From Raja brachyura (lineage: Eukaryota): a DNA stretch of 37,236 nucleotides. The notes under the pieces are model-generated. The model saw only the letters and a program-made list of their open reading frames with translations, ran no database searches and was not told where the DNA came from. The DNA lies in assembly GCA_963514005.1 (NCBI GenBank), contig OY740792.1:27430765-27468000 (forward strand). The letters are read 5' to 3'. A program made the position numbers and the translations under genes. This document shows positions 10,688 to 36,657 of this stretch, piece by piece. Position 1 is the stretch's first letter. Each line of letters starts with the position of its first letter.

Positions 10688-11832
10688 GGAATATTTTTTA
10701 TTTGTAACAACTCGGGAAAATTGAAATATTTTTTAAAATACTAGAAAATATTTAAAATCCATTCAATGCACTTTAAATTAACAGAAGGAGAAAAGTATAA
10801 ATTACTTGAAACTTACCATTCTCCCTTCCAACTATTCATCTCCATTGAAATGAACGAAGTCACTGAACCTGCGCATGGTTTAAGTGAACACTGGTCAGGT
10901 AGCAGATTCCCTAATGCAGATGCTCAGAAACTGAGAAGCTAAAGCTGCACCACTAGACTCCAGTGTTGAAGTGCAGTAGAGGTGGTGCTGGTCAGCCATT
11001 GATGTTAAGAACTATTGCACTTCGACACATTCACATGAAAGCCTTTGACATCTCCCACCATCATCCCCCCCACCCCCACCTCTTGCCATGTTTATAGACT
11101 TACATAGAATAGTACAACAAAGTAACAGGCCCTTTGGCTCACCATGTGTGTACTAACCATAAGACCATGATGTCAATTTAACTAATTCCACCTGCCTACA
11201 CGTAGTCCACATCCCTCTATTTCGTCCATATTTGTGTGTCTGTCAAATGTCCCTTAAACATTCCTTTCTTACCTGCTTGCACCATCTCCCCAGGCAGCTC
11301 GTTGCAGACATCTTCCAATTCTAGGGGGAAAAAAACCTGCCTTACTGTCTCTTTTCAACTTTTTCTTTCCAGTCTTAAACAAATGTCCTCTAACATTTGA
11401 CATTTTCCACCATAGTCTGACTATGTGGAGTTGCACCACAAAATCCCTCTGTACATCAATGATCCCAAGGGTCCTGTCATTTACTGTGCACTTTCCTCTT
11501 GCATTTAATCCAGCAAAATTCATCAACTTCTCTTGTCCAGAATTAAAGGCAGAGATAGATAGATTCTTGATTAGTGCGGGTGTCAGGGGTTATGGAGAGA
11601 AGGCAGGAGAATGGGGTTGGGAGGGAGAGCTAGATCAGCCATGATTGAATGGCGGAGTAGACTTGGTAAGTTTCAAGTAATTTCCAATTTTCTCCTTTGG
11701 TTAATTTAAATGCATTGAATGGATTTTAAATGTTTACTGATATTTTAAAAAATATTTCCATTTTCCCCGAATTGTTAACAAATAAAAATATTTCTGAGCA
11801 TGACGAAGGGTCTCAACCCGATTTGTCGTCTA
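10650..11832. repeat. Inverted repeat pair of about 170 bp: 10650-10818 and 11664-11832
   Basis: AATTACTTGAAACTTACCA (10800-10818) pairs with TGGTAAGTTTCAAGTAATT (11664-11682); TTTAAAATCCATTCAATGCA pairs with TGCATTGAATGGATTTTAAA; TCGGGTTGAGACCC pairs with GGGTCTCAACCCGA. Confidence 0.92.
11095..11535 (-). mobile_element. Degraded, internally deleted CR1 3' fragment
   Basis: ORF 11269..11526 has TVNDRTLG..DVQRD and RGHLFK remnants; CR1-type tail near 11100-11150. Confidence 0.65.
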
Positions 11833-11870
11833 ATGGCCTAATTTTGCTCCTGTCACTTATGACCTTATGA
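11545..11870 (+). mobile_element. Short CR1 3' end whose tail is interrupted by the inverted insert
   Basis: KAEIDRFLISAGVRGYGEKAGEWG, then GATCAGCCATGATTGAATGGCGGAGTAGACTTG [insert] AATGGCCTAATTTTGCTCCTGTCACTTATGACCTTATGA. The uninterrupted tail is seen at 29880-29945. Confidence 0.85.
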
Positions 11871-12369: not shown

Positions 12370-14043
12370 TGAAATGGACCGGAGGTCAAATAAGATGGCG
12401 GAACTGAGTGAAATCCAGGTTAGCTGGGAAGTGGTGTTGGGTAAATTAAACGGATTAACGGCCGATAAATCCCCAGGGCCAGATGGTCTGCATCCCAGAG
12501 TGCTCAAGGACGTAGCCATGGAAATAGTGGATGCATTAGTGATAATTTTTCAAAATTCCTTAGATTCTGGAGTAGTTCCTGAGGATTGGAGGATAGCTAA
12601 AGTAACCCCACTTTTTAAAAAAGGAGGGAGTGAGAAAGCGGGGAATTACAGACCAGTTAGTCTAACATCGGTAGTGGGGAAACTGCTAGAGTTATTAAAG
12701 ATGGGATAGCAGTGCATTTGGAAAGTGGTGAAATCATTGGACAAAGTCAGCATGGATTTACAAAAGGTAAATCATGTCTGACGAATCTTATAGAATTTTT
12801 CGAGGATGTAACTAGTAGAGTGGATAAGGGAGAACCAGTGGATGTGTTATATCTGGACTTTCGGAAGGCTTTCGACGAGGTCCCACATAAGAGATTAGTA
12901 TATAAACTTAAAGCACACGGTATTGGAGGTTCAGTATTGATGTGGATAGAGAACTGGCTGGCAGACAGGAAGCAAAGGGTAGGAGTTAACGGGTCCTTTT
13001 CAAAATGGCAGGCAGTGAGTAGTGGGGTACCGCAAGGCTCAGTGCTGGGACCCCAGCTATTTACAATATACATTAATGATTTGAACGAGGGAATTGAATG
13101 CAACATCTCCAAATTTTCAGATGACACCAAGCTGTGGGGTATAGTTAGGTGTGAGGAGGATGCTAGGAGACTGCAGGGTGATTTGGATAGGCTGAGTGAA
13201 TGGGCAGATGCATGGCAGATGCAGTATAATGTGGATAAATGTGAGGTTATCCACTTTGGTGGCAAAAACATGAGGGTAGACTATTATCTGAATGGTGGCA
13301 GATTAGGAAAAGGGGTGATGCAACAAGACCTGGGTGTCATGGTACAACAGTCATTGAAAGTAGGCATGCAGGTGCAGCAGGCTGTGAAGAAAGCAAATGG
13401 TATGTTAGCATTCATAGCGAAAGGATTTGAGTATAGGAGCAGGGAGGTTCTACTGCAGTTGTACAGGGTTTTGGTGAGACCACACCTGGAGTATTGCGTA
13501 CAGTTTTGGTCTCCAAATCTGAGGAAAGACATTCTTGCTATAGAGGGGGTTCAGAGAAGGTTCACCAGACTGATTCCTGGGATGTCGGGACTTTCATATG
13601 AAGAAAGACTGGATAGACTCGGCTTGTACTCACTGGAATTTAGAAGATTGAGGGGCGATCTTATAGAAACTTACAAAATTCTTAAGGTGTTGGACAAGCT
13701 AGATGCAGTAAGATTGTTCCCGATGTTGGGGGAGTCCAGAACAAGGGGTCACAGTCTAAGGATAAGGGGGAATTCCTTCAGGACCGAGTTGAGGAAAACA
13801 TTCTTTACACAGAGAGTGGTGAGTCTCTGGAATTCTCTGCCACAGAAGGTCATTGAGGCCAGTTCATTGGCTATATTCAAGAGAATTTTGATGTGGCTCT
13901 TGGGGCTAAAGGGATCAGGGGGTATGGAGAGAAGGCAGGTATGGGATACTGAGTTGGATGATCAGCCATGATCATATTGAATGGCGGCGCAGGCTCGAAG
14001 GGCTGAATGGCCTACTCCTGCACCTATTTTTCTATGTTTCTAT
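12370..14043 (+). mobile_element. 5'-truncated CR1 LINE with near-complete reverse transcriptase domain, disrupted
   Basis: ORFs 12365..12709 and 12712..13971: KSPGPDG, NYRPVSLTS, QHGF, LDFRKAFD, GVPQGSVLGP, FSDD (family motif FADD). Frameshifts near 12690 and 13885, no endonuclease, tail CCTACTCCTGCACCTATTTTTCTATGTTTCTAT. Confidence 0.95.
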
Positions 14044-14921
14044 TGGAATATTTGATATTCATTTCCACACCCAGATATTCCGACTTCTGGGAGGAGGTAT
14101 ATACTTGGATATAATTGTTTACAATTGCTCCGCAGTGTCTGCCAGCAGATATCCCCTTAATGACAGGGAACATATTAAATTAATGAAGAACAACTTCACT
14201 TGTAAGAACAGTTCAGGCTGTTCTTTGCCAGTGATTATGGAGGCCTATAACACCCAAAACAGAAGGAGGGAAGGCAGTAGGGGACAATTAAGAAACCGCA
14301 AAACCCTTTAGATTACAATAGGGATTGTAGTGCTGAACAAATGTGCAAAAAGGGAAGGTAACTTAAATTATTTTTCTTTATTTTAATATTTTTTTAATTA
14401 TTTGTATTAAGTATTTTAGTGAACTTTAATATTATTTATAATTTTGTTTATTCCTTTTAAATGTCAACAATTTTAAATATTTTTAAATATCAGAAATGTT
14501 CAACACAATTTTTCAAATCAGTTACAGCTTTTATGGTGAATGATCTACAATGTTGGCTGCCCAAGTTTTCAAAGCATTTTTGTATCTCTGCTTCATGGCT
14601 GGCACTCCAGCCACAACTGCAGCTGGAGTCCTGGAGGTGTCAGGCCAGTGAGTTTGGCTAAGCCCAACCAGCCAGGTAGGCACAGACACTGGGAGCTTGG
14701 AGGCCGGGGGGTCAATGGTTCCAGGAGGAGGAAGTGGGCTGGCAAGAAGCGTCCCAGCGGTTCTGTGAGTGTACAGCTTTGTATGCAGCGGTGCTACATT
14801 TCTCACAGAAACAACATTGCAAGCAGAATTGCCCAGGAACCTTAAACCCTTAGGAGGAAATCTTGCAGTGTAGTGTAGCACCCACTACCATAAAAGCCAT
14901 CCAAATGCCACAAAACTGTGT

Positions 14922-15005
14922 GCAGGTCCTCCCCGGATTACGACGTAGTTCCGTTCCCGAGAACTGATTGTAACCCGAATAGTTCACGACGGAAATGCGG
15001 TCATT
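14922..15005 (+). mobile_element. Possible Tc1/mariner-pogo (Tigger-like) DNA transposon end
   Basis: CAGGTCCTCCCCGGATTACGAC resembles Tigger-type TIRs; partner end not found. Confidence 0.3.
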
Positions 15006-16484
15006 GTGGAAATAGCTTTATGGCAAACATAGGCAAACCAAGGACAGAATGCCACAAACCGAGTTCCTACACAGCAGAAGATGTCTGCAGTCCCACAGCA
15101 GCTGGGAAATCCTTCCCTCCGGCCTTCCAAACGCTTAATCATATGTGTGGGTTGTACATAAATGGGGTGTTCATAATCTGGGGAAGCTCTTTAAAGCAGT
15201 GTTGAGCCTCCACTGGGAGGTGATCTATGGTCAGGGTCAGCACCTGCAACCTAACGCATTACCAAGGAGAACTCAAATTTGGATAGCAGGCTTAGCAGAA
15301 ATGAAAAAGACTCAATTCATACCCCCATCACAACGTTCCCCCCATTTCCCAATAATTCTGCCTCATCTAGTTTAGAGTTGGGGGTGCAAATGAAAGACTA
15401 CCTTTGAAAATTATGGAGAAGAGGATTACTATGGCAGTGATTTGCTGCATCCATCTTTCACTCCCTTTTCCCCACTGTGACCAAACATCCCTGTATCCGC
15501 CTCCCTACTCTGTCAGAATTCTGTGACCTTAGTTTACCTTTGCAATTGTACATCAGTAGATCTTTATTTTTATATGTAAGCAAATCCAGTTATTCAATAA
15601 CCATGGGTCTGAGGAATCGTATCCAGGCTGTAGGACTTAAGCTGTGTACTTTGACAGTAACTTGGATGTGTGCCAACACACATTTGTACTCATGAGCCTT
15701 ACAGACCCATAAATTGCTCTCAGTGGGAAATCAGATTGCAAAATACTCCAGGTGTCATTAATTATTCACCAATTGTAATAAGCACTATAAATTCTAGTCT
15801 ATAAATCACACTCCCCATTTAATGGTTCTAATTTTTTTTAAGCTTTAGGTAAATATATACATTATTTAATGTCTGGTGAAATATATTCAAAATATAAATT
15901 TACTTGTTACATTTGTAAAATACACTATTAGACATCAGTGTGGAACAGTTTCATGCAATGTAGTAGAACATTTACTTGTACGTATCTTGAATTTGAATTG
16001 CTTAATTCAAATCACAAGGTAGAAGGAAGGCAATTTTTGACCTTTTTGACTCCCAAGGAATGAGGACGATGTGGGGACAAAACGTAGAGCCGGTTTCATC
16101 CGCTCCACATTTCTGGAAATTGAATTCCATTAAAAAGCTGAAGATCAACTTGTGTTGAGACAAAGTTTCTTCATGAAATTTGAATACGAGAGAAGCAATG
16201 AGAACAGTATTTCTTTAACTTGGTGTCAGATTTCAATGGTTTCTTGACCTTGCCAATTTGAATTATAGAGTCAAAAGTTACTAGATTGTGTCTTTCAATG
16301 CAAACCTAGTTAAAGGGATTAGCAACTTCTGTCAGATATATTTTTTACCTACATTTGCTGGTCCTTTTGTTATGGATATTGGGTATCAGAAACTTCAAGG
16401 ACATCCAGTTCAGATGCACACTATCCCTTTACATGATTGGCGACCATTACAGAAGCACACTTTACTACTAGGCTAAGAAAAAGG

Positions 16485-16833
16485 CAAGAAGGCAAATTGA
16501 GTTTAATCCAGGTATGTGGGAGATGTTGCACTTTGGGAGGTTGAATGTAAGGGGAAGACAAGACCCTTCAGAGCATTGGTGACAATAGGAATCTTGGGTT
16601 CCAAGTCAATAGCTCCCAGTAGGTGGCCACACACTGGAGAGCAACAAAGAAGGTGCGTGCTATACTTGCCTTCATTGGTCTAGGCATTGAGTATGAGTCA
16701 GGAAGTCATGCTGTAGCTTTATAAAACCTTGGTTAGGCTACATGTGGAGTATTGTGTGCAGTTCTGATCCACCCATTGCAGGAAGCATATGGAAGCGTTG
16801 GAGAGGATGAAAATTATGTTTACCAGAATGATG
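16485..16833 (+). mobile_element. CR1 ORF2 fragment; resumes at 17669-17745 after the Penelope insertion
   Basis: LYKTLVRLHVEYCVQF*SPHCRK-like sequence; continues CCAGAATGATGCCTGGATT at 17669. Confidence 0.8.
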
Positions 16834-16934
16834 TGTGTAAGCAGGAATTGCAGATGCTGGTTTAAACCGAAGATAGGCACGAAAAGCTGGAGTAACTCAA
16901 CAGGACAGGCAGCATCTCTGGAGAGAAGGAAAGG

Positions 16935-16968
16935 GTGATGTTTCGGGTCGAGACCCTTCTTCAGACTG
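16935..16968 (-). ncRNA. Minimal type-I hammerhead ribozyme-like motif in Penelope pLTR
   Basis: RNA CAGU-CUGAAGA-A-GGGUC-UC-GACCC-GAAAC-AUC-AC: CUGANGA core, stem II, GAAA, NUC site. Penelope pLTRs are known to carry minimal hammerheads. Confidence 0.65.
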
Positions 16969-17291
16969 GTTAGGGATAAGGGAAACAAGAGATATAGACG
17001 ATGATGCGGAGAGATAAAGAACAATGAATAAAAAATATGCAAAAAAGTAACGATGATAAAGCAGACAGGCCATTGTAAGCTGTTTGTAGGGTGAAAGTGT
17101 GAAGCTAGTGCGACTTGGGTGGGGGAGGGATAGAGAGAGAGGGAATGCCGGGGCTACCTGGTGAGAGAAATCAATATTCATACTACTTGGCTGTAAGCTA
17201 CCTAAGCAAAATATGAGATGCTGTTCCCACAATATGTGTTTAGCCTCACTCTGACAATGGAGGAGACCTAGGACAGAAAGGTCTTTGTAGG

Positions 17292-17418
17292 TGTTAAAGA
17301 AGGAACTGCAGGTGCTGGAGAATCGAGGGTAGACAAAAGGCTGGAGAAACTCAACGGGTGCAGCAGCATCTAAGGAGATAGGCGATGTTTCGGGTCGAGA
17401 CCCTTCTTCAGACTGGTT
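17292..17418 (-). mobile_element. Solo pLTR nested in the Penelope element, with 14-bp target site duplication
   Basis: AAGGTCTTTGTAGG (17278-17291) and AAGGTCTGTGTAGG (17419-17432); carries CTGAAGAAGGGTCTCGACCCGAAACATC on the minus strand. Confidence 0.8.
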
Positions 17419-18341
17419 AAGGTCTGTGTAGGAATGGGAAGGAGAATTAAAGTGTCCAGCAATCGGGAGATCAGGTAGATTCAGGCGGGCTGAGCGAAGG
17501 TGTTCCGCGGAATGATCACCCAGTCTGCGTTTGGTCTCGCCGATGTATAAGAGTCCACATCTTGAACAATGGACACAGTAAATAAGGTTGGAGGAGATGC
17601 AAGTGACCCTCTCCCTAACCTGAAAGGACTGCCGAGGTCCCTGGACAGAGTCGAGGGAGGAGGCAGAGCCAGAATGATGCCTGGATTATAGAGTATTAGC
17701 TATAACTTGGATTGTTTTCCACGGAGCATTAAAGATTGAAGGCTTAGATATTGCACCCTTTGCTTGATACTTAGCAAGGGTGCCATGTTACTTGAGAAAC
17801 TGCATTGTTTGTATAGCAGACCTCCTAAAGTTCCTCACATAAGAGTAGCAGCAACGTTCAAATGACAGAGCATGTTAAATTATTCCCTTCATCATGATGA
17901 GTGGACTGATAATTTACATCATTCTCTGAATGATGATACTACAGACTGTCCTCAATCTTTGAAGACTGAGAACCTCTACTTTGCTGATGAGATAAAATGG
18001 GAAGCATTGGCCGAGAGAGAAATATTGACCAAAACAATGGGGAGAACTAATCAATTCCTTGGATTGCAATTGTGGATGAGAGACTCATTGGCTAATAGTG
18101 CTTGAGAAAGTGATGGTGAGATGCCTTCTCTAATCATAGAGGGGATTCTGCAGGGGATGGTGTTCCTTCGCGCCTGCTGCCCTTCCACTCGGAGAAAAGG
18201 ATCACAGCTTTACAAGATGCTGGCACCTAATTGTGGTTAACTCAGTGAACTATTATAAAGTGGTGAGGACTATTAAGTGATGTTCTATCAAATCCTGCAC
18301 AGCAGCTGTGGAGTGTTAATTGGAGTAATTATATGTATCTA

Positions 18342-19423
18342 TCTATATATTACTAAAACTCTCATCTTGTTTGTTTCTGTGTGTGCGTGTATCTGGCTGT
18401 AATTATTATCATGGAGCTACGCCAAAATGGTACACGATAGCGCTAAAACCACCTTACTCACAGTTGTCCTGTGGTGGTTTGTGTCAAGTTTCGTTCAGAT
18501 TTATGTTATATTTCACAAGTTATTGACATTTACAAAAACTTTACAAAATCCCACTTTGAGAACAATATGCTGTGGCAGTTGCTGGCAGATTCTGTCAGTT
18601 TGCAGCTATGACATCACAATGGGATCTCATTTACATAAGCTGCCATGAACAGTGCTCCACCCGACAATTACATCACAATGGGATCTCATTTACATAAGCT
18701 GTCAATCAACGCTGTTCCACCCAGTCCATGAGAGATTTGTTACATTGTTGTAAGGAGAGGGAGGGGGTGAGGAAGAAATGTTATTTAAACATTGTGATTA
18801 GTGGGGGGGAGTGCAATTGGGGAGAGGTGAGGGAGGGAGGGAGTGACTGAGGGTAGGGAAAATCTGAGGGAGGGTGATGTGAGGGAGTGAGTGGAAGAGG
18901 AGAGGAGAGAGAAGAGGAGGAGGGAGTGTATGAGCCGTTCCTGCACAGTTGGGGGCCATGGGTGAGTGGTGTAATATTGCCTTGGGGGAACGGGTTGTGT
19001 AGGGGGAACGGGTGAGTGGTGGAAACGGGTTGTGTTGGGTAAATGGGTGAGTGGTGGAATATTGAGTCGGCACGGGGCCCAACGGGTTAGGGGGATAGGG
19101 AGGAGAGAGGCGTTATGGAGGGAGTAACTGAGGGTAGTGAGTGACTGAGGGTAGGGGAAAGGAGAGGGAGGGAGAGATGATGGAGGGAGTGGAGAAGGGG
19201 AGGATGATATGGGAGAGAAGAGGGAGGGTGTTGGGAGATGAGGGGAAATGAGCCACGCCTGTGCAGTTGGGGGCTATGGGTGAGCGGTGGTATATTGCAT
19301 TGGGGGGGATGGGTTATGTTGGGGGAACAGGTGAGTGGTGGAAACGGGTTGCATTGGGGGAACAGGTGAGTGGTGGAATATTGCGTTGGGGGTACGGGGC
19401 CCAATGGGTCCCACTTGGTCTCG
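18342..19423 (+). mobile_element. Non-autonomous Helitron-like element C
   Basis: A|TCTATATATTACTAAAA start; end GGGGCCCAATGGGTCCC hairpin followed by ACTTGGTCTCG|T (CTAG mutated to CTCG). No TSD. Confidence 0.8.
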
Positions 19424-19441
19424 TGAGCAATAAAAACCTAC

Positions 19442-19722
19442 TTTAGAGATACAGCATGGAAACAGGCCCTTCAGCCCACCGGGACTGCATCGACTGAGGA
19501 GCCCTCAGTTCTATCCCACACACTTGGGGGACAATTTACAGAAGCCAATTAACCTAAAAACCTGCACATCTTTAGAATGTAGGAGAGAACGGAGTGCCTG
19601 GAGAAAACCCATTCGGTCACAGGGTGAATGTACAAACTGCGTACAGACGGCACCCATAGTCAAGATCGATCCCAGGCCTCGGGTGCTGTAAGGCAGCAAC
19701 TCTATCGCTGTGCTACCGTGGT
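19442..19722 (-). mobile_element. Near-full-length tRNA-derived HE1/V-SINE-like SINE
   Basis: Minus strand head CACGGTAGCACAGCGATAGAG (A-box-like), GGGATCGATC (B-box-like), tail GAAGGGCCTGTTTCCATGCTGTATCTCTAAA. Confidence 0.8.
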
Positions 19723-20564
19723 GTCTATGAAACTACTGGATAGTTTTAAAAACCCATCTGCTTTATGAATGTTCTTTGGGATTGAAATCTGACACCCCTA
19801 CTCTGTCCAGCAGATATTAAATTCCAACCTACAGCAACGCTGTTGGCTTTCAATGGCTCAGCAAGCTGCTTAGTTCAGAGGAAATTGAGGATAGATTAAA
19901 AAATGGGACAGCAGAAGGTAAAATCTTGAGGAAAAAAAATACAAATTCTGGGGGAACTCTTTCTGATGGAGCAGGAAATGGCTGCTAGAAACTGGTGAGG
20001 GAAAGAGGTGCGAAATGAACTGGTGAGTGATAGGTGATTGAAGATGAGGAGGGATTGACTGATAGGTGAGACAGGTGGGAGAGTGGAGGGTGGAGATAAT
20101 AATGAAGGCTGAAGAACAAAGGGTGAAGATCATTGAAGCTAATAAGAAAGGAGGATGCATAGTGAAATGTAAAACCGGAGGGGGAAATTGTGACTAGAAA
20201 GGAATGGGAGGTTGAGAAGAAAAATACAGAACACGGAGCAGGGAGATGAGTGGAAGGAAGAGGTAGAGGAAAGGAAACTAACTGTGTGATGGGAGTGGGA
20301 GAACTAGAAAGAAAGATGTTCACAGGCAGGGGGAGGAAGATAAAGTTATACTAAGGAAACGATGATGTCAGTACGCCTAGTCTGTCAAAGCCTCTGTACA
20401 GCAGTGAGACAACAGTGCAGTACAATCTCACAGAGGCATCTGTCTAGATTTACTACTGACATTAGGGTTAGAATTTTGTCTTCCATCACATCTGCTAAAC
20501 ATGCACAAATCTTTGCAGGGTAAATCTGAACTCAAGTGTTTCCACAAAGGGAAGCTGCCTCCTG

Positions 20565-20920
20565 TGAGTGGGCGATATCACTCGTGCCTCTGAACCAGTA
20601 GGTGTTATTCAATCACATCTTAAAGGACCTAGTTACACAACCCAAGCTGATACTCCAGTGCAGGGTTCAGGGTACAATGCGTAGATAGAGGTGCCATTGT
20701 CGGCATGGCACATCAATCTGGAGCCCTGTTTCACAATAGCAAATAACACATCCCCTGCATGTATTCTTCAACCTCTGAAACAGGCGATCTTATGTTGTAT
20801 TTGGAGCTAGCTCTGTGACAAATTAGCCACCGTGTATCATGCTGTCAATGGTGACTACTCTTCACAAGTGCTTCATTGGTTGCAAAGTCCTGAGGGAAAC
20901 CCCGAGGCTGTGACAGGGGG
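20565..20920 (+). mobile_element. Deu-SINE-like (SacSINE1-like) element
   Basis: GCCTCTGAACCAG head, GCTGATACTCCAGTGCAG...GAGGTGCC, tail GTGACTACTCTTCACAAGTGCTTCATTGGTTGCAAAG. Confidence 0.6.
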
Positions 20921-21441
20921 AGTACCATTCTTTCTTATATTCCTGACATACTGTTTGCAGGCATTAAAGTATCACGAGACAACTGTGCATGATTTTCCAC
21001 ATACAGATTTCCAAGGAAAGGATACCTAATTTTCCAAATTTACAAAGTACCTTTCTACATACAAGAACTTGGCTAATGCACCCTTACATAGTACATTGAA
21101 ATGATACATTCTGTCAAAAATAGTGTGGGATTGTTCATTTCAAAGTAAAAATTGAACTGACAAAAATAAAGCAGGCTTAACCCATTCACGGGTGATAGGA
21201 AAGTATCTGCTTAGAGTGAAGAGAATGCAAGGGTTGAATTGTCTCTGGTTATCTTTGACATTGGAGTTATTAATTTTTGAATTTCTCAAACAATGAAAGA
21301 AGTAATTTCTGTTTGATGGAAGAAAATCTTCATGATAGGAATGATTTGGCTCGATAATACTGTATATTTGGGTCATAAATATGACATAGTCAAATTGTTA
21401 TTTTTGTATTTTATTATGATGCAATTTTATTTTGAATTATG

Positions 21442-22522
21442 AACATAGAAACATAGAAAAATAGGTGCAGGAGTAGGCCATTCGGCCCTTCGAGCCTGCG
21501 CCGCCATCACCGGCAAAGAACAGCCTGAACTGTTCTTACAAGTGAAGTTGTTCTTCATTAATTTAATATGTTCCCTGTCATTAAGGGGATATCTGCTGGC
21601 AGATACTGCGGAGCAATTGTAAACAATTATATCCAAGTACATACTTCCTCCCAGAAGTCGGAATATCTGGGCGTGGAAATGAATATCAAATATTCCAATA
21701 GAAACAAAGAAAAATAGGTGCAGGAGTAGGCCATTCAGCCCTTCGAGCCTGCGCCGCCATTCAATATGATCATGGCTGATCATCCAACTCAGTATCCCAT
21801 ACCTGCCTTCTCTCCATACCCCCTAATCCCTTTAGCCCCAAGAGCCACATCAAAATCCCTCTTGAATATAGCCAATGAACTGGCCTCAATGACCTTCTGT
21901 GGCAGAGAATTCCAGAGACTCACCACTCTCTGTGTAAAGAATGTTTTCCTCAACTCGGTCCTGAAGGAATTCCCCCTTATCCTTAGACTGTGACCCCTTG
22001 TTCTGGACTCCCCCAACATCGGGAACAATCTTCCTGCATCTAGCTTGTCCAACACCTTAAGAATTTTGTAAGTTTCTATGAGATCCCCCCTCAATCTTCT
22101 AAATTCCAGCGAGTACAAGCCGAGTCTATCCAATCTTTCCTCATATGAAAGTCCTGACATCCCAGGAATCAGTCTGGTGAATCTTCTCTGTACCCCCTCT
22201 ATGGCAAGGATGTCTTTCCTCAGATTTGGAGACCAAAACTGTACGCAATACTCCAGGTGTGGCCTCACCAAAACCCTGTACAACTGCAGTAGAACCTCCC
22301 TGCTCCTATACTCAAATCCTTTCGCTATCAATGCTAACATACCATTTGCTTTCTTCACTGCCTGCTGCACCTGCATGCCTACTTTCAATGACTGGTGTAC
22401 CATGACAGCCAGGTCTCGTTGCATCTCCCCTTTTCCTAATCTGCCACCATTCAGATAATAGTCTACCCTCATGTTTTTGCCACCAAAGTGGATAACCTCA
22501 CATTTATCCACATTATACTGCA
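21442..22522 (-). mobile_element. Composite insertion: CR1 3' 820 bp, 190 bp copy of the 14044-14235 flank, then a second 65-bp CR1 tail
   Basis: 21506-22522 is the reverse complement of 13220-14235. 21442-21507 reads ATGGCGGCGCAGGCTCGAAGGGCCGAATGGCCTACTCCTGCACCTATTTTTCTATGTTTCTATGTT on the minus strand. Confidence 0.95.
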
Positions 22523-23831
22523 ACATGAAGCAAGATTCAATGAGCAATGCATAGCTTATTATGAGATGCACAAGCTTATCGTATCATGTCAAAAACAGAA
22601 TGAGCTTACCATTTGACCCATCATATCTGTACAACCTCTTTATCGGAGCTGTCCAATTACTCCCACTTCACTGCTTTACATATATACAACAGGAGGTCTG
22701 CATTCAGATCACAATGCCTGTTAAGGATAATCAGACAAAATCTAATGCTTCCTACCCGCTTCAAGTGGATCTTCTCAATCTTCCCACTACTGTTGTGCAG
22801 TCATTCTGATTCTTCTAAATTTAAAGCACTTGAAATAATAAAAGTAAACATTAGATTTTTTTAAATGATGTTTACCATTCAGTCATTCAATCTGTAAAGC
22901 AAAACAAAATGTTCCAAAAGTCCTTTGCTAATTTTAGATTCTTTAATAGAGGGTGCAAAGTTTACAGACAATTAAAAGATGGCGGGTTCCCCAACTAATG
23001 TATTTTAGACAATTGATGGGCAATGCAAATATTTAAGTAGATCGTGGTAAATGGTTTGAGGAATGAATCCACAGTGGAGAAACAGGCCATTCAGCTCATC
23101 TAGACCATGTAGTGTTCTTCTGAAACACAATTATTTTACCCCCATTGCTGCCCCTCCATTTCCTTTTGTCCTCTGCAACCTTTCCTATAAAGTGATTAAT
23201 TTGTATCTACTTAATGCTCAAACAGCATAGCTAGCCTGTGCAAAGGAATTCCTCCTAAATATTTAAATAATAGCCATGTTATATTTATGATTTGTTCAAT
23301 ACTCACCCACAGGTTGATTGAAGAGTTCCAAAACTCAATGTAAACTTAGCGAGCACGGAAGATCCTAAACAGAAAGAAACTCTTGTTTACACAATGGTGA
23401 AACACTGTGAGTTGGTTAATGACATATGATCATCTTGATATCAACCATGTGGCTCAGAATGCAACCTGTTTTATATTATTAACGACAGCAGCAAAAAAAC
23501 AATCCAAGCTTCTTTACGCTTCTAGCCTTTTACTATTCTTCCTGATAGAATTAACTCATTATTTCGGGTTCTATTCATCCGTTCCCCTACCGAGAATCCA
23601 TCTGATCCCTAAGCATTTGATGTGGCAATGTATTGATAATTGGCTTAGATTTGCATTTCTAACTATGATATTCAACCGCAGATAGAACCCAACATAGAAT
23701 TTGATCTTGGAGTTCATACAGTCCTTGCTGCTCCAGCCTGGTAGGATGAAGAGGGCAAACTGGCTTAATGTACAGTAGAAAAAGTGTGATGGATCTATTG
23801 CTTGTACTGAAGCACTTGGATAATGGGCATT

Positions 23832-24190: not shown

Positions 24191-24554
24191 TATTGTTATC
24201 ATTTCCACCTATATTGCAAAACACAAACAATTCTACTCACTCCATTGTAGATCCTTTCATTTGTGCAAATGCTGTAGCAGTTACATGAACACAAGAAAGA
24301 GAGACATCTGGAGGTCAGGTGTCCTCTTGAGCTTAGTCCATGTATCATGGCTGTTTTGGGCCTCGTCCACCCTTCTACCCAATCTCCTTCGATATTTTCT
24401 AACCCACTTCCAGTCATTGTCTGTCAGTCTGAAATTATTTGACTAATCCAGAAACTGTTGAGTCCAATTTCCCACTGCAACAGTTTGGGATTTTAAACTT
24501 AGTTTTTTTTTAATTTAGAAACTCAATCTGGTATCCATTAAATGAACCTGTCCA

Positions 24555-25584
24555 TCTATATTATACTAAAAGTCTTGTCATGTTTGTCTGTCTCTCTGAC
24601 TGTTTGTAAGATCAAGGAACGACGCCAAAACAGTACACAATAGCACAAACGTTTTTGCAGAATCTTACTTCACTTTTTCCCGTGGTCATTAGTATCAAGT
24701 TTATTCACATTTTATGTTATATTTCACAAGTTATTGATATTTAAAGTTTAAAAAAAGCCAACTTTGATAATAATAACTGCCTGTGAGAGTGAGACTTTTC
24801 TAGCAGCTTCCGGTGATGATGTCACAATAGCATCTCACAGTCGTCCAATCACAATGGGATCTCATTTACACAAACTGCCGTGAAGATTCCGAAAACGACA
24901 TCACAATGTGATCTCTACTGCCAATACAGAAGCTATGAGAGTTGACAGAGTGGGGGATGGGAGGGGTACATTTTTTATTTAAACGTTGTATTTAATGAGG
25001 GAGTGCGAAAGGGGAGAGGTGAGGGAGTGACTGAGGGTAGGGAAAAGGAGAGGTGACAGAGAGACAATGGGATCAGCAGCTTCAAGGAGAGTAAGGAGAG
25101 AGTGAGACTTTTGCCCCACATGGGAAGGATTGATTGCGTTGGGGGAACGGGTTGCGTTGAGGGAACGGGTGATAGGTGGATTATTGTGTTGGGGAAACAG
25201 GGCCCAACAGGTCAGGGGAGTAGAGAGGGATGAGGGGTTATGGAGGGTGGGAGGGAGTGACCGATGGTAGGGAATGATTGAGGGTAGGGGAAAGGAGAGG
25301 TGATGGAGGGAGTGGAGGAGGGGGAGGGAGTGTTAGGGGATGAGGGGAAATGAGCCGCACCTGCGCAGTTGGGGCTTATGGGTGAGTGGTGGAATATTGC
25401 ATTGGGCGAATGGGTTACATTGGGGGAACGGGTATTGGGGGTGATTGGCTCCGGGGGGCACCTGTCTCTGGGGTGAGCTCCGACGCCGCGCTCGGGGACC
25501 AACCCTCCCATGTGACGCCGCGCCCCCCCCCCCCCCCCCCCCGAATGTTGGGGGATGGGGCCCGACGGGTCACACCTGGTCTAG
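24555..25584 (+). mobile_element. Non-autonomous Helitron-like element D
   Basis: A|TCTATATTATACTAAAA start; end GGGGCCCGACGGGTCAC followed by ACCTGGTCTAG|T. Colinear with element C. Confidence 0.85.
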
Positions 25585-26097: not shown

Positions 26098-26690
26098 TAC
26101 ATAGAAAATAGGTGCAGGAAGAGGCCATTCGGCCCTTCGAGCCAGCACCGCTATTCATTGTGATCATGTCTGATCGTCCCCTATCAATAACCCGTGCCTG
26201 CCTTCTCCCCATATCCCTTGACTCCACTAGCCCCTAGAGCTCTTTCTAACTCTCTCTTAAATCCATCCAGTGATTTGGCCTCCACTGCCCTCGGTGGCAG
26301 GGAATTCCATAAATTCACAACTCTCTGGGTGAAAACGTTTTTTTCTCACCTCAGTCTTAAATGACCTTCCATTTACTCTAAGACTGTGGCCCCTGGTTCT
26401 GGACTCGCCCAACATTGGGAACATTTTTCCTGCATCTAGCTTGTCCAGTCCTTTTATAATTTTATATGTTTCTATAAGATATCCCCTCATCCTTCTAAAC
26501 TCCAGTGAATACGAGCCTAGTTTTTTCAATCTTTCCTCATATGACAGTCCCGCCATCCCAGAAATCAATCTCGTGAACCTACGCTGCAGTGCCTCAATCA
26601 CAAGGATGTCCTTCCTCAAATTAGGAGACCAAAACTGTACACAATACTCCAGATGTGGTCTTACCAGAGCCCTATACAACTGCAGAAGAA
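26098..26690 (-). mobile_element. 5'-truncated CR1 3' fragment
   Basis: ORF 26257..26772 LLQLYRALVRPHLEYCVQFWSP...GESRTRGHSL; CR1 tail at 26098-26150. Confidence 0.92.
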
Positions 26691-27354
26691 ACTGTTCATG
26701 ACAGGATTGAGCCTGGTATATTGCCCGGATAAGTAGTGGTGTTAATAATAGAGAATTGCAAAGTATACACACACCAACTTTCCTGTATTATTTTGGTTCA
26801 AACTATACCTGTAAATCCTTGTACTTTTTTCTGCAATTGCAATTGACCAATTCTACTTTAGCAAATGAAAAACACACTACATGGTGAGCCAGATCAGATG
26901 AAAGATTCTCCAAGCATGGAGATAGCTCATGCTCCAGACCTATTTGTTAAGCAAAACACAACATCTGGCACAATTGTAAACACATGTGGAGGGATAATAA
27001 GATTTACATTCCCTTCACCTCTTCAAATATCAGAACCGTTTGTAAATTTCATGGTGGAACAATTGACATTTTCAAATATGCAGAGCTAAGTGTTCACAGT
27101 TCTCATTCTGCCAGTATGCATCTCTCTCCCTGGCATTCATAGCTGTCATAAATAATCTTTTAAATGTTTTGATTCTCATGTAAATTTTACACTCATCTTC
27201 AACATTGTGATAACATGAAAAAAAATTGTTCCACCCTTGAAGGAAAGAATCAAGGCATTTTTAAAATATGTTTTCTCAGTTCATACTGGAAACTTTCAAA
27301 GTCCTCTTGCAATCAACCCTGACTGCTTAAAGCAAATTCATAATTTATTTGGAA

Positions 27355-27577
27355 ACACAAGAGACTGCAGATGCTGGAATTCTGAGCAAAAAAACAAACT
27401 GCTGGAGGAACTCAGCAGGCCAGCCAACATTTGTAGTTGAAAATGAACAGATAATATTTCAGACTAGGACCCTTCAGACACTGTCAGAGTCGGTCCCAGT
27501 GAAGCATTGTCTGTTCATTTCTCTCCGCAGATGCTGCATGACCTTCCGAATTTCTCCAGCACTTTTCTTTTGCTCAT
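27355..27577. mobile_element. Palindromic element made of two inverted Penelope pLTR halves
   Basis: TGAGCAAAA...TGCTGGAGGAACTC...AAATGAACAGA versus CTGTTCATTT...GAATTTCTCCAGCA...TTTTGCTCA. Confidence 0.7.
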
Positions 27578-29799: not shown

Positions 29800-29945
29800 A
29801 AAGTGACAGATACTTGATTAGTAAGGATGTTAAGGGTTATTGGGAGAAGGCAGGAGAATGGGATTGGAAAGGAAAAATAGGTCAGCCTTGGAGTAGACTC
29901 GATGGGCTGAATGGCCTAATTCTGCTCCTATGACTTATGAACTTA
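29800..29945 (+). mobile_element. Short CR1 3' tail
   Basis: GGAGAAGGCAGGAGAATGGG...GGAGTAGACTCGATGGGCTGAATGGCCTAATTCTGCTCCTATGACTTATGA. Confidence 0.8.
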
Positions 29946-31220: not shown

Positions 31221-31525
31221 TCTGTGAATACTACTGCTGGCTGGTTGGCACAGCTAGCAGGAGTATTTCAACGAACACAGTGACAAACAGGATGAAGTAA
31301 AGAAGTTACATGTTGGGTTTTCCCTGTTGGTCCTTGGTTGGGTATGCCCTTTGTAACCATGGTTCGATATGGGTGCACAGTTCTTTTATTATATTAAACT
31401 CATTTGAAATTGATACTTCAAATTAAAGAAGTATAAATAATATACTTCGAACACAATTCCCAATTTGGACAACTTCATACTGCACAGATATTGAGTGGTC
31501 TCTCTTTAGTGTTCATGATCAATCT

Positions 31526-31532
31526 TATAAAG
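31526..31532 (+). promoter_or_regulatory. Candidate TATA box for the claudin gene
   Basis: TATAAAG starting 38 bp before the first in-frame ATG (31564); the region is AT-rich, so chance occurrence is possible. Confidence 0.3.
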
Positions 31533-31797
31533 TTACATTAAGCAAAAGCATTGTTTAAAACTAATGTGTGCTATTGATTGCAGGTATTCCATTCCAAGTT
31601 CCCCTCGAAGAAGCACCATGTGTACATACAGTAGAAGCAGTAAAGAGGGAATGCCAAGAGCTCGCAGCGACCTCAGTCCTCCTCCTCGGGTTCAAGTTTC
31701 AGAAGAGCTGTCCCCTAATAAGGAGCAGATGTACACAGTCGTTGAGCCATGCCTTGCAGGAGCTGAAAAGGCTTTCATTGAAGATAGGGACAACAGG

Positions 31798-32448
31798 ATG
31801 AAGTCAAGAAGTTGTGTATTTCAATGTGTAGGATTTTGTCTATCGTTCCTTGGTTGGATGTGCTCTTTGGCAACCACGGTTCTACGCGATTGGATGTCAA
31901 TGAACAATGACTTAGTGTTGACAGAGGAGTTCTCTATTGGCATCTGGGAGATGTGCGTTGCTCAAGAGGAAGGGAATGTCCAGTGCAAGGCCTACGATAG
32001 TCTCTTCACACTACCAGAGGACATTCAACTGGCTCGAATCTTCATGTGCACGTCCATTGCCTTTGGCCTGCTGAGCTTGGTGCTCTCCCTGTCCGGGTCG
32101 ACATCTGTCACCTGCTGTGGTGATGATAATGCCAAAAAGGGGAGGTTAATGGTCTGCGGTGGAGTCCTAGCTATTCTGGCTGGAGTTACGACCCTCATCC
32201 CAGTGTCCTACGTAGCCCACTTGACAGTGCTGAAGTTCTGGAATGATGACATCCCCGATTTTGTCCCACGTTGGGAGTTTGGCCAGGCTTTGTTTGTTGG
32301 TTGGGCTGGTGGCTTTCTTCTGTTGCCCGGTGGTCTTTTGCTGATCATTGCCCAGTGTTGCTTCAGAAAACCCAAGAGCAAATTTCAACTGAAGCCACCA
32401 TTACAAACTGCGAGGAGACAACTGTGGTATAAAGTGGAGTACGTCTAA
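31798..32448 (+). CDS. Intronless claudin, claudin-22/24-like (216 aa from the family-typical start)
   Basis: Four hydrophobic segments, ECL1 signature W...GIW..C...C, ECL2 FWNDDIPDFVPRWEFGQALFVGW (the PDFVPRWEFG motif typifies CLDN22/24), C-terminal EYV. ORF is open upstream to 31564. Confidence 0.93.
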   Translation: MKSRSCVFQCVGFCLSFLGWMCSLATTVLRDWMSMNNDLVLTEEFSIGIWEMCVAQEEGNVQCKAYDSLFTLPEDIQLARIFMCTSIAFGLLSLVLSLSGSTSVTCCGDDNAKKGRLMVCGGVLAILAGVTTLIPVSYVAHLTVLKFWNDDIPDFVPRWEFGQALFVGWAGGFLLLPGGLLLIIAQCCFRKPKSKFQLKPPLQTARRQLWYKVEYV

Positions 32449-34927: not shown

Positions 34928-35642
34928 AGTAGATACAAGGAACTGCAGTTGCTGGTTTATAAAAGAAGCAGCTCAGTGGGTCAGGCAGCATCTCAAGAGA
35001 ACATTGATAGGCAATGTTTCAGATTGGGATCCCTCTTCAAACCCATTGTGGGGTGGGTGAGGGGGAGGGGGGGGGGGAGGGGAGAAAACTAGAAGGGGTA
35101 GGGCAAAGCCTGGCAGGTAATAAGCTGTCACAGGTAAGGAAGGTCATTTGATAGGGAGATGGGTGAACAAAGACCAGAGATAAAAAGACAGATGGTGTGA
35201 GGCAAAAAAATGGACAGAAAAGTCAGTATGGGAATATGAAGAGGATTTAAATTGGATAACAACCGGTAGATCCTGCAGGCCTTGGGGACTGAGAGCATGT
35301 GTTCATCAAAATGGTCATGGAGTCTACGCTTGGTCTCGCGAATGTACAGGAGGCCACATTGGACACGGCAAATGCTGTAGGTGAGGTTAGACGAGGTGCG
35401 CGTGAACATCTGTCTCACCTGGAAGGAATGCTGGGGTTCCTGGATGGGGACGAGGGAGGTGTAGGGACAGGTGTTACATCTCATGATCTCCTGCAGTTGC
35501 AGCGGAAAGTGTCTGGGGCCGGAGTGGTTTTAGTGGGAAGGGATGAGTGAACCAATGAGTTGCGGAGAGAGCAATCTCTGCAGAAGGCGGAAAAGAGTGG
35601 GGATGAGAAGATGTGACTGGTGGTGAGATCATATTGGAGATG
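34928..35642 (-). mobile_element. Penelope-like element fragment (GIY-YIG endonuclease and pLTR)
   Basis: ORF 35128..35484 RCNTCPYT...FTRTSSNLTYSIC..CGLLYIRETKRRL. Confidence 0.85.
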
Positions 35643-35644
35643 CA

Positions 35645-36657
35645 TCTCATCTAATCCATCCGGTTTTCTCGATGTGGCCTCCTGTACATCAGTGAGTCCA
35701 CAGTGAGAGTGAAGATGACCTCCTTCGACCTCCCTTCAACTATGTTGAAGACTATCTATGACTACCTTCGACTCTTTCAATAACCTTCGACTACCATCGA
35801 TTACCTACGAATAACATGCCAACCTACTACGACTAAACCTACGAGTAAAAAAAAAAATTTTTTTCCATGGCGACCTTTTTTTACTCGCGGGCATTTTTCA
35901 GCATGTTGAAAAATACGCCACGACCTAGCTGAGGCCTCGAGTACGTGGGGATTACTCTCGAGCATGAAGGAGAGTTACAAAAACCTCCTAAGACCTCGTG
36001 TCGACCATGCTGCGAGTATGAGTCGAGGGCAAACTCTTCTAAACTCGCCAAATAGGTTGCTGCAATGGGACAGCCCCTTCACACTCTATCTGCCAAGTCC
36101 TGCAGGATCTTCCGGTTGCTATCCATTTAAACTCCTCTTCCCGTTCCCATACTGACCTTGCTGTCCTGAGCCTCCTCCATTGCCCGTGTAGACACATGCA
36201 AACTTTAGGAACAGCACCTCATATTTTGTTTGGGTAGTTTACAACCCAACTGCATGAACATTAAATTCTCCAATTTTAGGTAACTACCTTAACTCTCCTG
36301 CTCTCCTCCCTCTTTTGTCCCCCTCTCCTCCCCTCAAGGCTCCATATGGACCATTCATCTGTTTCTCTCCTCCCAGCTACATTGCTACCTCTAGCTTCAC
36401 AATTTGCACCTCTTCAATCCTTTTGTCAAAAACTTTGTTATTTCATCCCTAGTTTTTGCCAATAATCTGCCGATCAATTAACCTTCCTCACCTGCGTCAG
36501 CCTATTACCCAGCATGTTTTGTACTGCCCCTCCCTCTCTTTTAGGTTTCTTTCCACCACCCCTACAATCAGTCTGCAGAAGGGCCCCGGACCTGAAATAT
36601 CACCTTTCCATGTTCTCCTAAGATGCTGCCTGACCTGCTGATTTACTCCAACATCTT
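35645..36657 (+). mobile_element. Oppositely oriented Penelope 3' arm, interrupted at about 35700-36080
   Basis: GATGTGGCCTCCTGTACATC, then EQHLIFCLGSLQPNCMNIKFSNFR* and pLTR CAGTCTGCAGAAGGGCCCCGGACCTGAAATATCAC. Confidence 0.8.
35700..36080. mobile_element. Partial MITE-like DNA element with CTTCGA/CTACGA internal repeats
   Basis: CpG-rich; ends TGGGACAGCCCCTT, close to the reverse complement of the AAGGGCCTGTCACA terminus at 36866. Confidence 0.55.

What the first reader, a model, noticed from the sequence alone, without database searches (positions are those of the whole stretch)
13220..22522. 1-kb inverted duplication: CR1 3' end plus 190 bp of its flank, capped by a second CR1 tail
Seen: 21506-22522 is the reverse complement of 13220-14235, including non-CR1 flank 14044-14235 (5 transitions in about 190 bp by my count). 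The copy then switches at an AT microhomology into the last 65 nt of CR1. The donor flank continues TGATTATGGAGGC, which mimics the tail's TGAATGGCGGC. The copy keeps the intact C-terminal frame (FKRDFDVALG...) that is frameshifted at about 13885 in the donor. A possible ATGAA TSD is weak. It looks like a re-tailed 3' transduction or template switch landing 7 kb from its source. The arms could also drive inversion of 14236-21505.
Basis: partly seen in the sequence, partly recalled or inferred. Interest (0 to 1): 0.8.

Follow-up and report, generated by a model that had tools for sequence, protein, structure and literature searches.

The report
CR1 retrotransposon patched from its neighbour
In what looks like a skate or ray genome, one dead jumping-gene copy carries about 550 bases copied from a similar copy 7 kb away, including 190 bases of that neighbour's flank; this is most likely the scar of a known kind of DNA break repair rather than a new way of jumping.

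Summary
The inverted pair is real: 13220-14235 versus 22522-21506, 26 substitutions and 1 gap, five flank transitions, second CR1 tail. It is not one 1-kb copy. Thirteen of 19 coding differences are synonymous, 12 in 13383-13662. Seven rare amino-acid states shared by both arms all lie 3' of 13686. So only the last ~550 nt of the right element (B) were copied from the already decayed left element (A). B's 5' ~450 nt and outer tail look like a separate, younger insertion, bounded by a 5-bp AACAT duplication. Best reading: a break inside B was repaired by invading A, over-ran 190 nt into A's flank and rejoined B's own tail by microhomology (DDSA / non-canonical HR termination; 0.5). Template switching during retrotransposition remains possible (local DNA 0.2, read-through RNA 0.12). 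Classical 3' transduction fails its tests. The interior is not inverted, if the TSD is real. A second CR1 tail in the window (11558-11870) also holds an inverted copy of DNA 0.85 kb away: 2 of 5 tails. No genome, reads or orthologues were available.

The parts
12377..14043 (+). Element A (donor): 5'-truncated, decayed CR1-clade LINE with ORF2 RT domain, frameshifts near 12690 and 13884, and 3' tail ending in (TTTCTATG)n
   Evidence: RVT_1 E=6e-24; 5' end by tblastn of long relatives; ORFs; private changes
13663..14043 (+). 3' part of A that was copied into B; the switch lies between 13663 and 13687 on the simplest reading
   Evidence: last synonymous difference at 13662, first shared rare state at 13687; 4 substitutions in 381 nt
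14044..14235 (+). Non-CR1 flank of A captured in B
   Evidence: only other match in the window is 21697-21506; no protein match for its open frame
14232..14244 (+). Microhomology to the CR1 tail at the end of the captured flank (AT at the junction; 7 of 8 match 3 nt further on)
21442..21446 (+). Probable target-site duplication AACAT, 3' copy, overlapping the tail microsatellite
   Evidence: chance about 0.014
21442..21507 (-). Outer (second) CR1 tail of B; carries C at the CpG where both inner tails have T; holds the predicted hairpin and repeats
21506..21697 (-). Copy of A's flank inside B
   Evidence: 192 nt, 97.4%
21698..22079 (-). A-derived ORF2 end and inner tail inside B
   Evidence: seven shared rare amino-acid states and shared T in the tail
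22080..22522 (-). 5' part of B, from a younger CR1 lineage rather than from decayed A; 5'-truncated at 22522
   Evidence: 12 synonymous differences, 0 shared rare states in 155 codons, 2 private changes
22522..22526 (+). Probable target-site duplication AACAT, 5' copy
11558..11870 (+). Second case (element D): short CR1-family tail split in its hairpin region by an inverted local copy at 11664-11827
   Evidence: both halves collinear with the tail at 29805-29945; insert 147 of 169 identical to 10818-10652
10652..10818 (+). Template of the second case: end of a dispersed repeat plus AT-rich flank, not CR1

Best explanation
B began as an ordinary 5'-truncated CR1 insertion of roughly 0.8-0.9 kb on the minus strand, made by target-primed reverse transcription with a 5-bp duplication. 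Not long afterwards it suffered a double-strand break or gap in its last ~350 nt. The end carrying B's 5' body invaded the nearest homologue, the older element A, 7 kb away in opposite orientation. It copied A's ORF2 end and tail, ran 190 nt into A's flank, was displaced, and was joined by microhomology to the other end, which still held B's own last 65 nt. Shown: the mosaic structure, the direction, and the junction and TSD sequences. Inferred: the break, the order of steps, and DNA rather than RNA as template. The product is a dead element with no expected function.
For: Mosaic: 13 of 19 coding substitutions are synonymous against 25-30% expected (P 1e-4 to 1e-3), 12 within 280 nt (scan P 0.001-0.006). 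Seven rare residues shared by A and B all fall in codons 156-243 and none in 1-155 (48 relatives; P 0.0004-0.004 against a control showing no such bias in relatives). G156V is absent from 146 of 146 homologues covering the site; six of the seven states are absent from 10 of 10 closest subfamily members. Models with a young 5' part of B beat whole-copy models by 1.2-8 log units. The outer tail has C like element C, both inner tails T, as expected if it is B's own. The TSD length fits the 3-5 bp stated for CR1/L2 (PMC4245944). Seen from the outer tail, the flank site is unremarkable (rank 18 of 271 by duplex energy; a nearer 7-of-8 site lies at 19978), but among tail-versus-flank pairs it is the only GC-rich 7-of-8 match at the flank end. 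This fits a homology-led start and microhomology-led finish, and explains why the donor is the nearest close CR1. Precedent: DDSA (PMC3276153) and microhomology-terminated long-tract conversion (PMC5104497). Element D shows a local inverted fill-in in another CR1 tail.
Against: B's 5' part is about as old as the copying event (2 private changes against 3.0 expected; twice as old P=0.06, three times P=0.006), which is exactly what a one-step chimeric insertion predicts. The copied strand contained 63 nt of near-perfect homology to the other end, which should normally give clean annealing without the flank. The junction lies 3-5 nt from the base of the predicted RNA hairpin, a natural place for an RT jump, although the fold is no more stable than shuffles (z about 0). 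Two things remain unexplained: A has no private change in 113 codons at 13348-13686 (P 0.008-0.05), and the arms show no synonymous difference in the first 54 codons (P=0.009). An extra conversion of A or mosaic master elements is needed. Relatives are proteins from other or unnamed sources, biased to open frames; no nucleotide subfamily data were available.
Confidence: 0.5

Rival explanations
1. One-step chimeric insertion with local DNA as template: the CR1 RT copied 65 nt of a young RNA, the cDNA end was extended on nearby exposed DNA of A (flank, tail, ORF2 end) by fold-back, and synthesis then returned to the CR1 RNA by homology.
For: Ages match; TSD encloses the whole chimera; junction next to the hairpin base; the template is the same strand as the primer, so fold-back geometry works (sequence); L1 insertions with sequence templated from DNA near the site were seen in 3 cases in PMC11702581 (passages).
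Against: A tail cDNA end has a perfect partner in A's own tail and many better microhomologies than the flank site; needs about 7 kb of exposed strand and two switches.
Confidence: 0.2
2. RNA template switching ('re-tailed transduction', the first reader's idea, modified): the RT jumped from a young CR1 RNA to a read-through transcript covering A and its flank, then back to CR1 RNA.
For: All parts are in sense orientation; CR1-type RTs need their own tail (PMC4176376, PMC3747384), so a flank could only be moved behind a borrowed tail; template switching by CR1 RT is proposed for PittSINE (PMC5729268); ages match.
Against: A cannot transcribe or mobilise itself (truncated, frameshifted); no evidence of a plus-strand transcript over A, which lies between a WW-domain exon and a claudin ORF; landing 7 kb from the donor needs a nascent local transcript; two switches.
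Confidence: 0.12
3. The whole 1 kb was copied from A in one event (either mechanism), and the middle of one arm was later overwritten by gene conversion from a third CR1 copy; or A itself is a young-5'/old-3' chimera.
For: The first 163 nt differ at only 4 sites, none synonymous, as for a plain copy; A's mutation-free middle suggests some conversion happened; the 'A is itself chimeric' model fits nearly as well as the best.
Against: No shared rare state in the first 155 codons; whole-copy models fit 1.2-8 log units worse; a TSD around B would then require the copying to be retrotransposition.
Confidence: 0.13
4. No local copying: A and B are independent insertions of an unsampled subfamily whose tail includes the 190 nt, or the structure is an assembly artefact.
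For: Could not be tested genome-wide; no reads.
Against: A lacks an outer tail after the 190 nt and runs on into other sequence; shared states include a change at a glycine kept in 139 of 146 homologues; the one database protein reading through this tail does not continue into the flank; the arms differ by 2.6% in a patterned way and no gap is near.
Confidence: 0.05

Closest known systems
Duplication-dependent strand annealing (DDSA; Fiston-Lavier et al. 2007, seen only as described in PMC3276153 and PMC3420103, passages)
   Same: Break inside a repeat repaired from an ectopic copy of the repeat, duplicating sequence next to it; intrachromosomal and close
   Different: Here the tract is only about 550 nt, inverted, between two CR1 copies of one subfamily, in a cartilaginous fish; the break itself is inferred
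[quoted passage not shown]
   Same: Synthesis runs past the homology and rejoins the second end by microhomology
   Different: That work used an induced break and sister-chromatid template in mouse ES cells with kilobase tracts; here the template is a roughly 95-97% identical paralogue in the germline
Template-switch retro-chimeras: U6-L1 (PMC13174262, abstract and introduction), PittSINE with CR1 tail (PMC5729268, passages), SINEU (PMC4494074, passages)
   Same: LINE tail at the 3' end, foreign sequence 5' of it in sense, TSD round the whole
   Different: The foreign part is a neighbour's flank plus a second CR1 end, followed by a return to CR1; the donor is 7 kb away; no known RNA
L1-type 3' transduction (definition recalled, not from a call)
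   Same: An element's 3' end and its downstream flank appear at a new site
   Different: Donor is dead and truncated, the insert is a mosaic, it ends in a second element tail rather than poly(A), and it is local
Elasmobranch CR1-clade LINEs (HER1 is listed as partner of HE1 SINE in PMC3747384, passages)
   Same: RT domain, CR1-like C-terminus, hairpin plus 8-nt repeat tail; 91% to a Leucoraja erinacea protein
   Different: Identity with HER1 or any named subfamily was not testable; no nucleotide library

Membership tests
CR1-clade LINE | ORF2 with RT domain related to CR1 proteins | tested here: met
   RVT_1; best named hits skate, ray, shark, bird and turtle RT-type proteins; no clade tree was built, so the label CR1 rests on these hits and recall
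CR1-clade LINE | 3' tail with hairpin and short (8-nt) terminal repeat | tested here: inconclusive
   (TTTCTATG)n present; the same hairpin is predicted in all tails folded but is not more stable than shuffles in A and B (z about 0; C z=-1.9)
CR1-clade LINE | 5' truncation with 3-5 bp TSD | tested here: met
   AACAT at both ends of B, chance about 0.014; expected length from PMC4245944
HER1 / named skate CR1 subfamily | Nucleotide identity to the family consensus | not testable with these tools
   no eukaryotic repeat or genome collection; the genome-contig scan gave 8 distant loci at 40-56% identity
Classical 3' transduction | Source element able to be transcribed and mobilised | tested here: not met
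   A starts near 12377, inside ORF2, and has two frameshifts
Classical 3' transduction | Whole insert derives from one source element plus flank | tested here: not met
   mosaic
Classical 3' transduction | Flank is the 3'-terminal part of the insert | tested here: not met
   a second CR1 tail follows the flank
Template-switch retro-chimera | LINE tail 3', other sequence 5' in sense, one TSD round both | tested here: met
Template-switch retro-chimera | All parts arrive in a single event | tested here: inconclusive
   ages compatible within about twofold; orthologous sites not available
Template-switch retro-chimera | Captured part exists as RNA | not testable with these tools
   no expression data; no protein match for the flank frame
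DDSA / HR over-run with end joining | Duplication starts inside shared repeat homology and extends into unique flank | tested here: met
   switch inside ORF2 at 13663-13687, end at 14235
DDSA / HR over-run with end joining | Remnant of the recipient repeat on the far side of the new tract | tested here: met
   outer tail differs from both inner tails and carries the TSD; rests on one CpG site and the repeat length
DDSA / HR over-run with end joining | Microhomology or added bases at the terminating junction | tested here: met
   AT, with 7-of-8 match adjacent; not exclusive to this mechanism
DDSA / HR over-run with end joining | Recipient repeat existed before the duplication | not testable with these tools
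   needs alleles or sister species

The most novel reading that the evidence does not exclude
CR1 3' tails in skates and rays are recurrent capture points for nearby DNA. Either the tail hairpin is break-prone, or the tail-dependent RT jumps as it leaves the hairpin, picks up local sequence in inverted orientation and returns. With 2 of 5 tails in this one window so modified, a tail-dependent LINE family covering a large share of these genomes would have its own substitute for 3' transduction and be a steady source of short inverted duplications and of mosaic CR1 lineages.
Probability: 0.2. Interest if true: 0.65.

Novelty: new member of a known kind. Interest (0 to 1): 0.33.

Why it matters
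As a single locus it is a clean natural example of repeat-initiated ectopic repair and has no evident function. It warns that LINE-plus-flank copies are not automatically transductions, and that CR1 copies can be mosaics that mislead subfamily trees and age estimates. It would matter more if the pattern is common. CR1-group elements cover 22-34% of elasmobranch genomes (bioRxiv 10.64898/2026.01.13.699120, passage), and a genome-wide count of tails with local inserts would directly test whether tail-dependent LINEs move flanking DNA and by which route.

Tried and rejected
Simple whole-arm duplication: overall divergence is even between CR1 part and flank (21 of 824 versus 5 of 197), which first looked supportive, but the synonymous and shared-state patterns reject it. 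Flank as coding exon or known element: its 88-residue frame found 0 hits among 1.84 billion representatives; the 133-residue tail-plus-flank frame found 1 hit among 14 candidates, tail only; an L1-like peptide resemblance in a stop-ridden frame was noticed and not tested. Nucleotide relatives: the one genome-contig scan returned 8 loci at 40-56% protein identity, too distant to use; eukaryotic genomes, reads, and the metagenome and viral contig collections stayed unchecked. Element C (79%) was too distant to polarise the synonymous block: of the 11 block sites it covered, 4 matched A, 4 matched B, 3 neither. P0151 matches B at 90 of 90 residues including F64L but then departs from the CR1 frame, so it was judged another copy, not proof of B; F64L may be a subfamily variant. 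No Rfam or tRNA match. Element D as a transposon with terminal inverted repeats: rejected, since one arm starts inside a continuous repeat and the other splits a CR1 tail. Past inversion of the interior: rejected, conditional on the TSD. Ten literature searches listed no report of CR1 flank capture in elasmobranchs; only titles and abstract starts were seen for most, and the library lacks most subscription papers.
Full report
Observation. Self-BLAST and alignment confirm the inverted pair 13220-14235 / 22522-21506 at 97.3% over 1017 columns, with 26 substitutions and one gap, and five transitions in the 192-nt flank. The right element (B, minus strand) continues through an AT junction into a second tail matching the left element's (A) tail at 62 of 63 nt. 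B's ORF2 end is open; A has lost one base near 13884. The only N run is at 4871-5024. A carries an RT domain, and the nearest named proteins are from Leucoraja erinacea (91%), Mobula and Hypanus, so the window is very probably from a skate or ray. The name CR1 rests on these hits and on recall; no clade tree was built.

The arm is a mosaic. Divergence is even overall but not in kind. Of 19 unambiguous coding substitutions, 13 are synonymous, against 25-30% expected for dead DNA (P 1e-4 to 1e-3), and 12 lie in 13383-13662 (scan P 0.001-0.006). Such a block marks descent through different active lineages. I compared both arms with the 48 of 164 held proteins that were at least 85% identical over at least 40 residues. 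A and B share seven rare states (G156V, M190L, V211I, codon 222, L223F, V228G, T241M), all at 13687-13943 and none in the first 155 codons. Relatives show no such bias (2.2-3.1 rare changes per 100 codons in each segment), giving P 0.0004-0.004. V at 156 is absent from 146 of 146 homologues covering the site. Six of the states are absent from all 10 closest subfamily members, and T241M, a CpG change, is in 1 of 10; M190L and V228G do occur in distant homologues. Both inner tails have T at a CpG where the outer tail and element C have C. So the last ~550 nt of B were copied from A after A had decayed, while B's 5' ~450 nt and outer tail look younger.

Limits of that reading. Rough Poisson models, with segments chosen after seeing the data, favour a young B 5' part over whole-copy models by 1.2-8 log units. 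Two results do not fit neatly. A has no private change in 113 codons at 13348-13686 (P 0.008-0.05), and the arms show no synonymous difference in their first 54 codons (P=0.009). The best-fitting model adds a later conversion of A's middle; mosaic master elements or a chimeric A are alternatives. The relatives are proteins from other or unnamed sources and favour open frames.

Boundaries. AACAT lies at 21442-21446 and 22522-22526, flush with B's 5' end and overlapping the tail repeat (chance about 0.014). A 3-5 bp duplication is what PMC4245944 states for CR1/L2 (passages). B's outer ends therefore look like one retrotransposition event. Because both copies still flank B in direct orientation, the interior has not been inverted in this haplotype. 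The longest perfect run between the arms is 174 nt. The flank matches nothing else in the window and no protein; whether it is unique in the genome is unchecked.

Mechanism. The junction has AT microhomology and a 7-of-8 match three bases on (chance about 0.002). From the outer tail's side this site is ordinary: rank 18 of 271 for a 10-nt primer, lower for longer ones, with a nearer 7-of-8 site at 19978 and a perfect site in A's own tail. A search that began at the outer tail would probably have landed elsewhere. A search that began from B's body, by long homology, explains the choice of A, the short distance, the switch inside ORF2, the captured flank and the leftover tail together. This is the DDSA model as described in PMC3276153 and PMC3420103 (passages; the original paper was not read), and it matches microhomology-terminated long-tract conversion in PMC5104497 (passages). 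Against it: B's 5' part is no more than about twice as old as the copying; 63 nt of tail homology should usually give clean repair; and the junction sits 3-5 nt from the predicted hairpin base (fold not better than shuffles). These keep one-step retrotransposition chimeras alive, with local DNA (PMC11702581, passages) or read-through RNA (PMC5729268, PMC4494074, passages; PMC13174262, abstract and introduction) as second template. CR1/L2-type RTs require their own tail (PMC4176376, PMC3747384, passages), which is why the RNA version would be interesting. Classical 3' transduction fails: A is truncated near 12377 and frameshifted, the insert is a mosaic, and it ends in a second tail. My odds: repair after insertion 0.5, local-DNA switch during insertion 0.2, whole copy plus conversion 0.13, RNA switch 0.12, no local copying or artefact 0.05.

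A second case. A short tail of another CR1-type family at 11558-11870 is collinear with 29805-29945 on both sides of an insert at 11664-11827 that is an inverted copy (147 of 169) of 10818-10652, 845 nt away, replacing roughly 7-10 nt in the hairpin region. The template is not CR1, so homologous invasion cannot apply. The geometry fits fold-back synthesis from the left end of a break in an existing tail (inference), though an RT detour is not excluded. Of the five CR1-type tails I recognised in the window (A, B, 26099, 11558, 29805), two carry a local inverted insert. The window was selected for one of them and the sample is tiny.

Verdict. The feature is real, and more structured than first read, but most likely a new example of repeat-initiated ectopic repair. 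Ten searches of the held library listed no report of such captures in elasmobranch CR1, which is weak evidence of absence; no supplements were read. Interest 0.33. The bold reading, recurrent local capture at CR1 tails as a substitute for transduction, has probability about 0.2 and is cheaply testable on an assembled skate genome.

Noticed in passing
11558-11870 and 10652-10818: Second CR1-type tail split in its hairpin region by an inverted 87% copy of DNA 845 nt upstream
   Followed up: partly
13348-13686: Element A has no private amino-acid change over 113 codons although it has 3-7 per 100 codons elsewhere; possible later conversion from a third CR1
   Followed up: partly
284-469 (-): WW-domain exon in GC-rich DNA (PF00397); among the top PDB matches is KIBRA residues 4-42; probably the first exon of a WWC-family gene (recalled, not tested)
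   Followed up: partly
31531-32448 (+): Single-exon claudin ORF (PF00822); a 71% partial direct duplicate of 31773-31882 lies at 31266-31365
   Followed up: no
16833-17685 and 35128-35529: Remnants with a GIY-YIG-like peptide and many short dispersed repeats, some in inverted pairs (27390-27571, 35212-36166); Penelope-like by recall, no Pfam match
   Followed up: no
26099-26693 (-): Third CR1 copy, 79% to A and B, with an ordinary single tail
   Followed up: partly
18338-19410 and 24551-25433: Two diverged copies of a repeat with internal tandem purine-rich units; family not identified
   Followed up: no
L001-L008: CR1-like RT sequences on mostly short contigs of bacterial genome assemblies, probably animal DNA contamination
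   Followed up: no
4871-5024: 154-base assembly gap in a purine-rich low-complexity region
   Followed up: no
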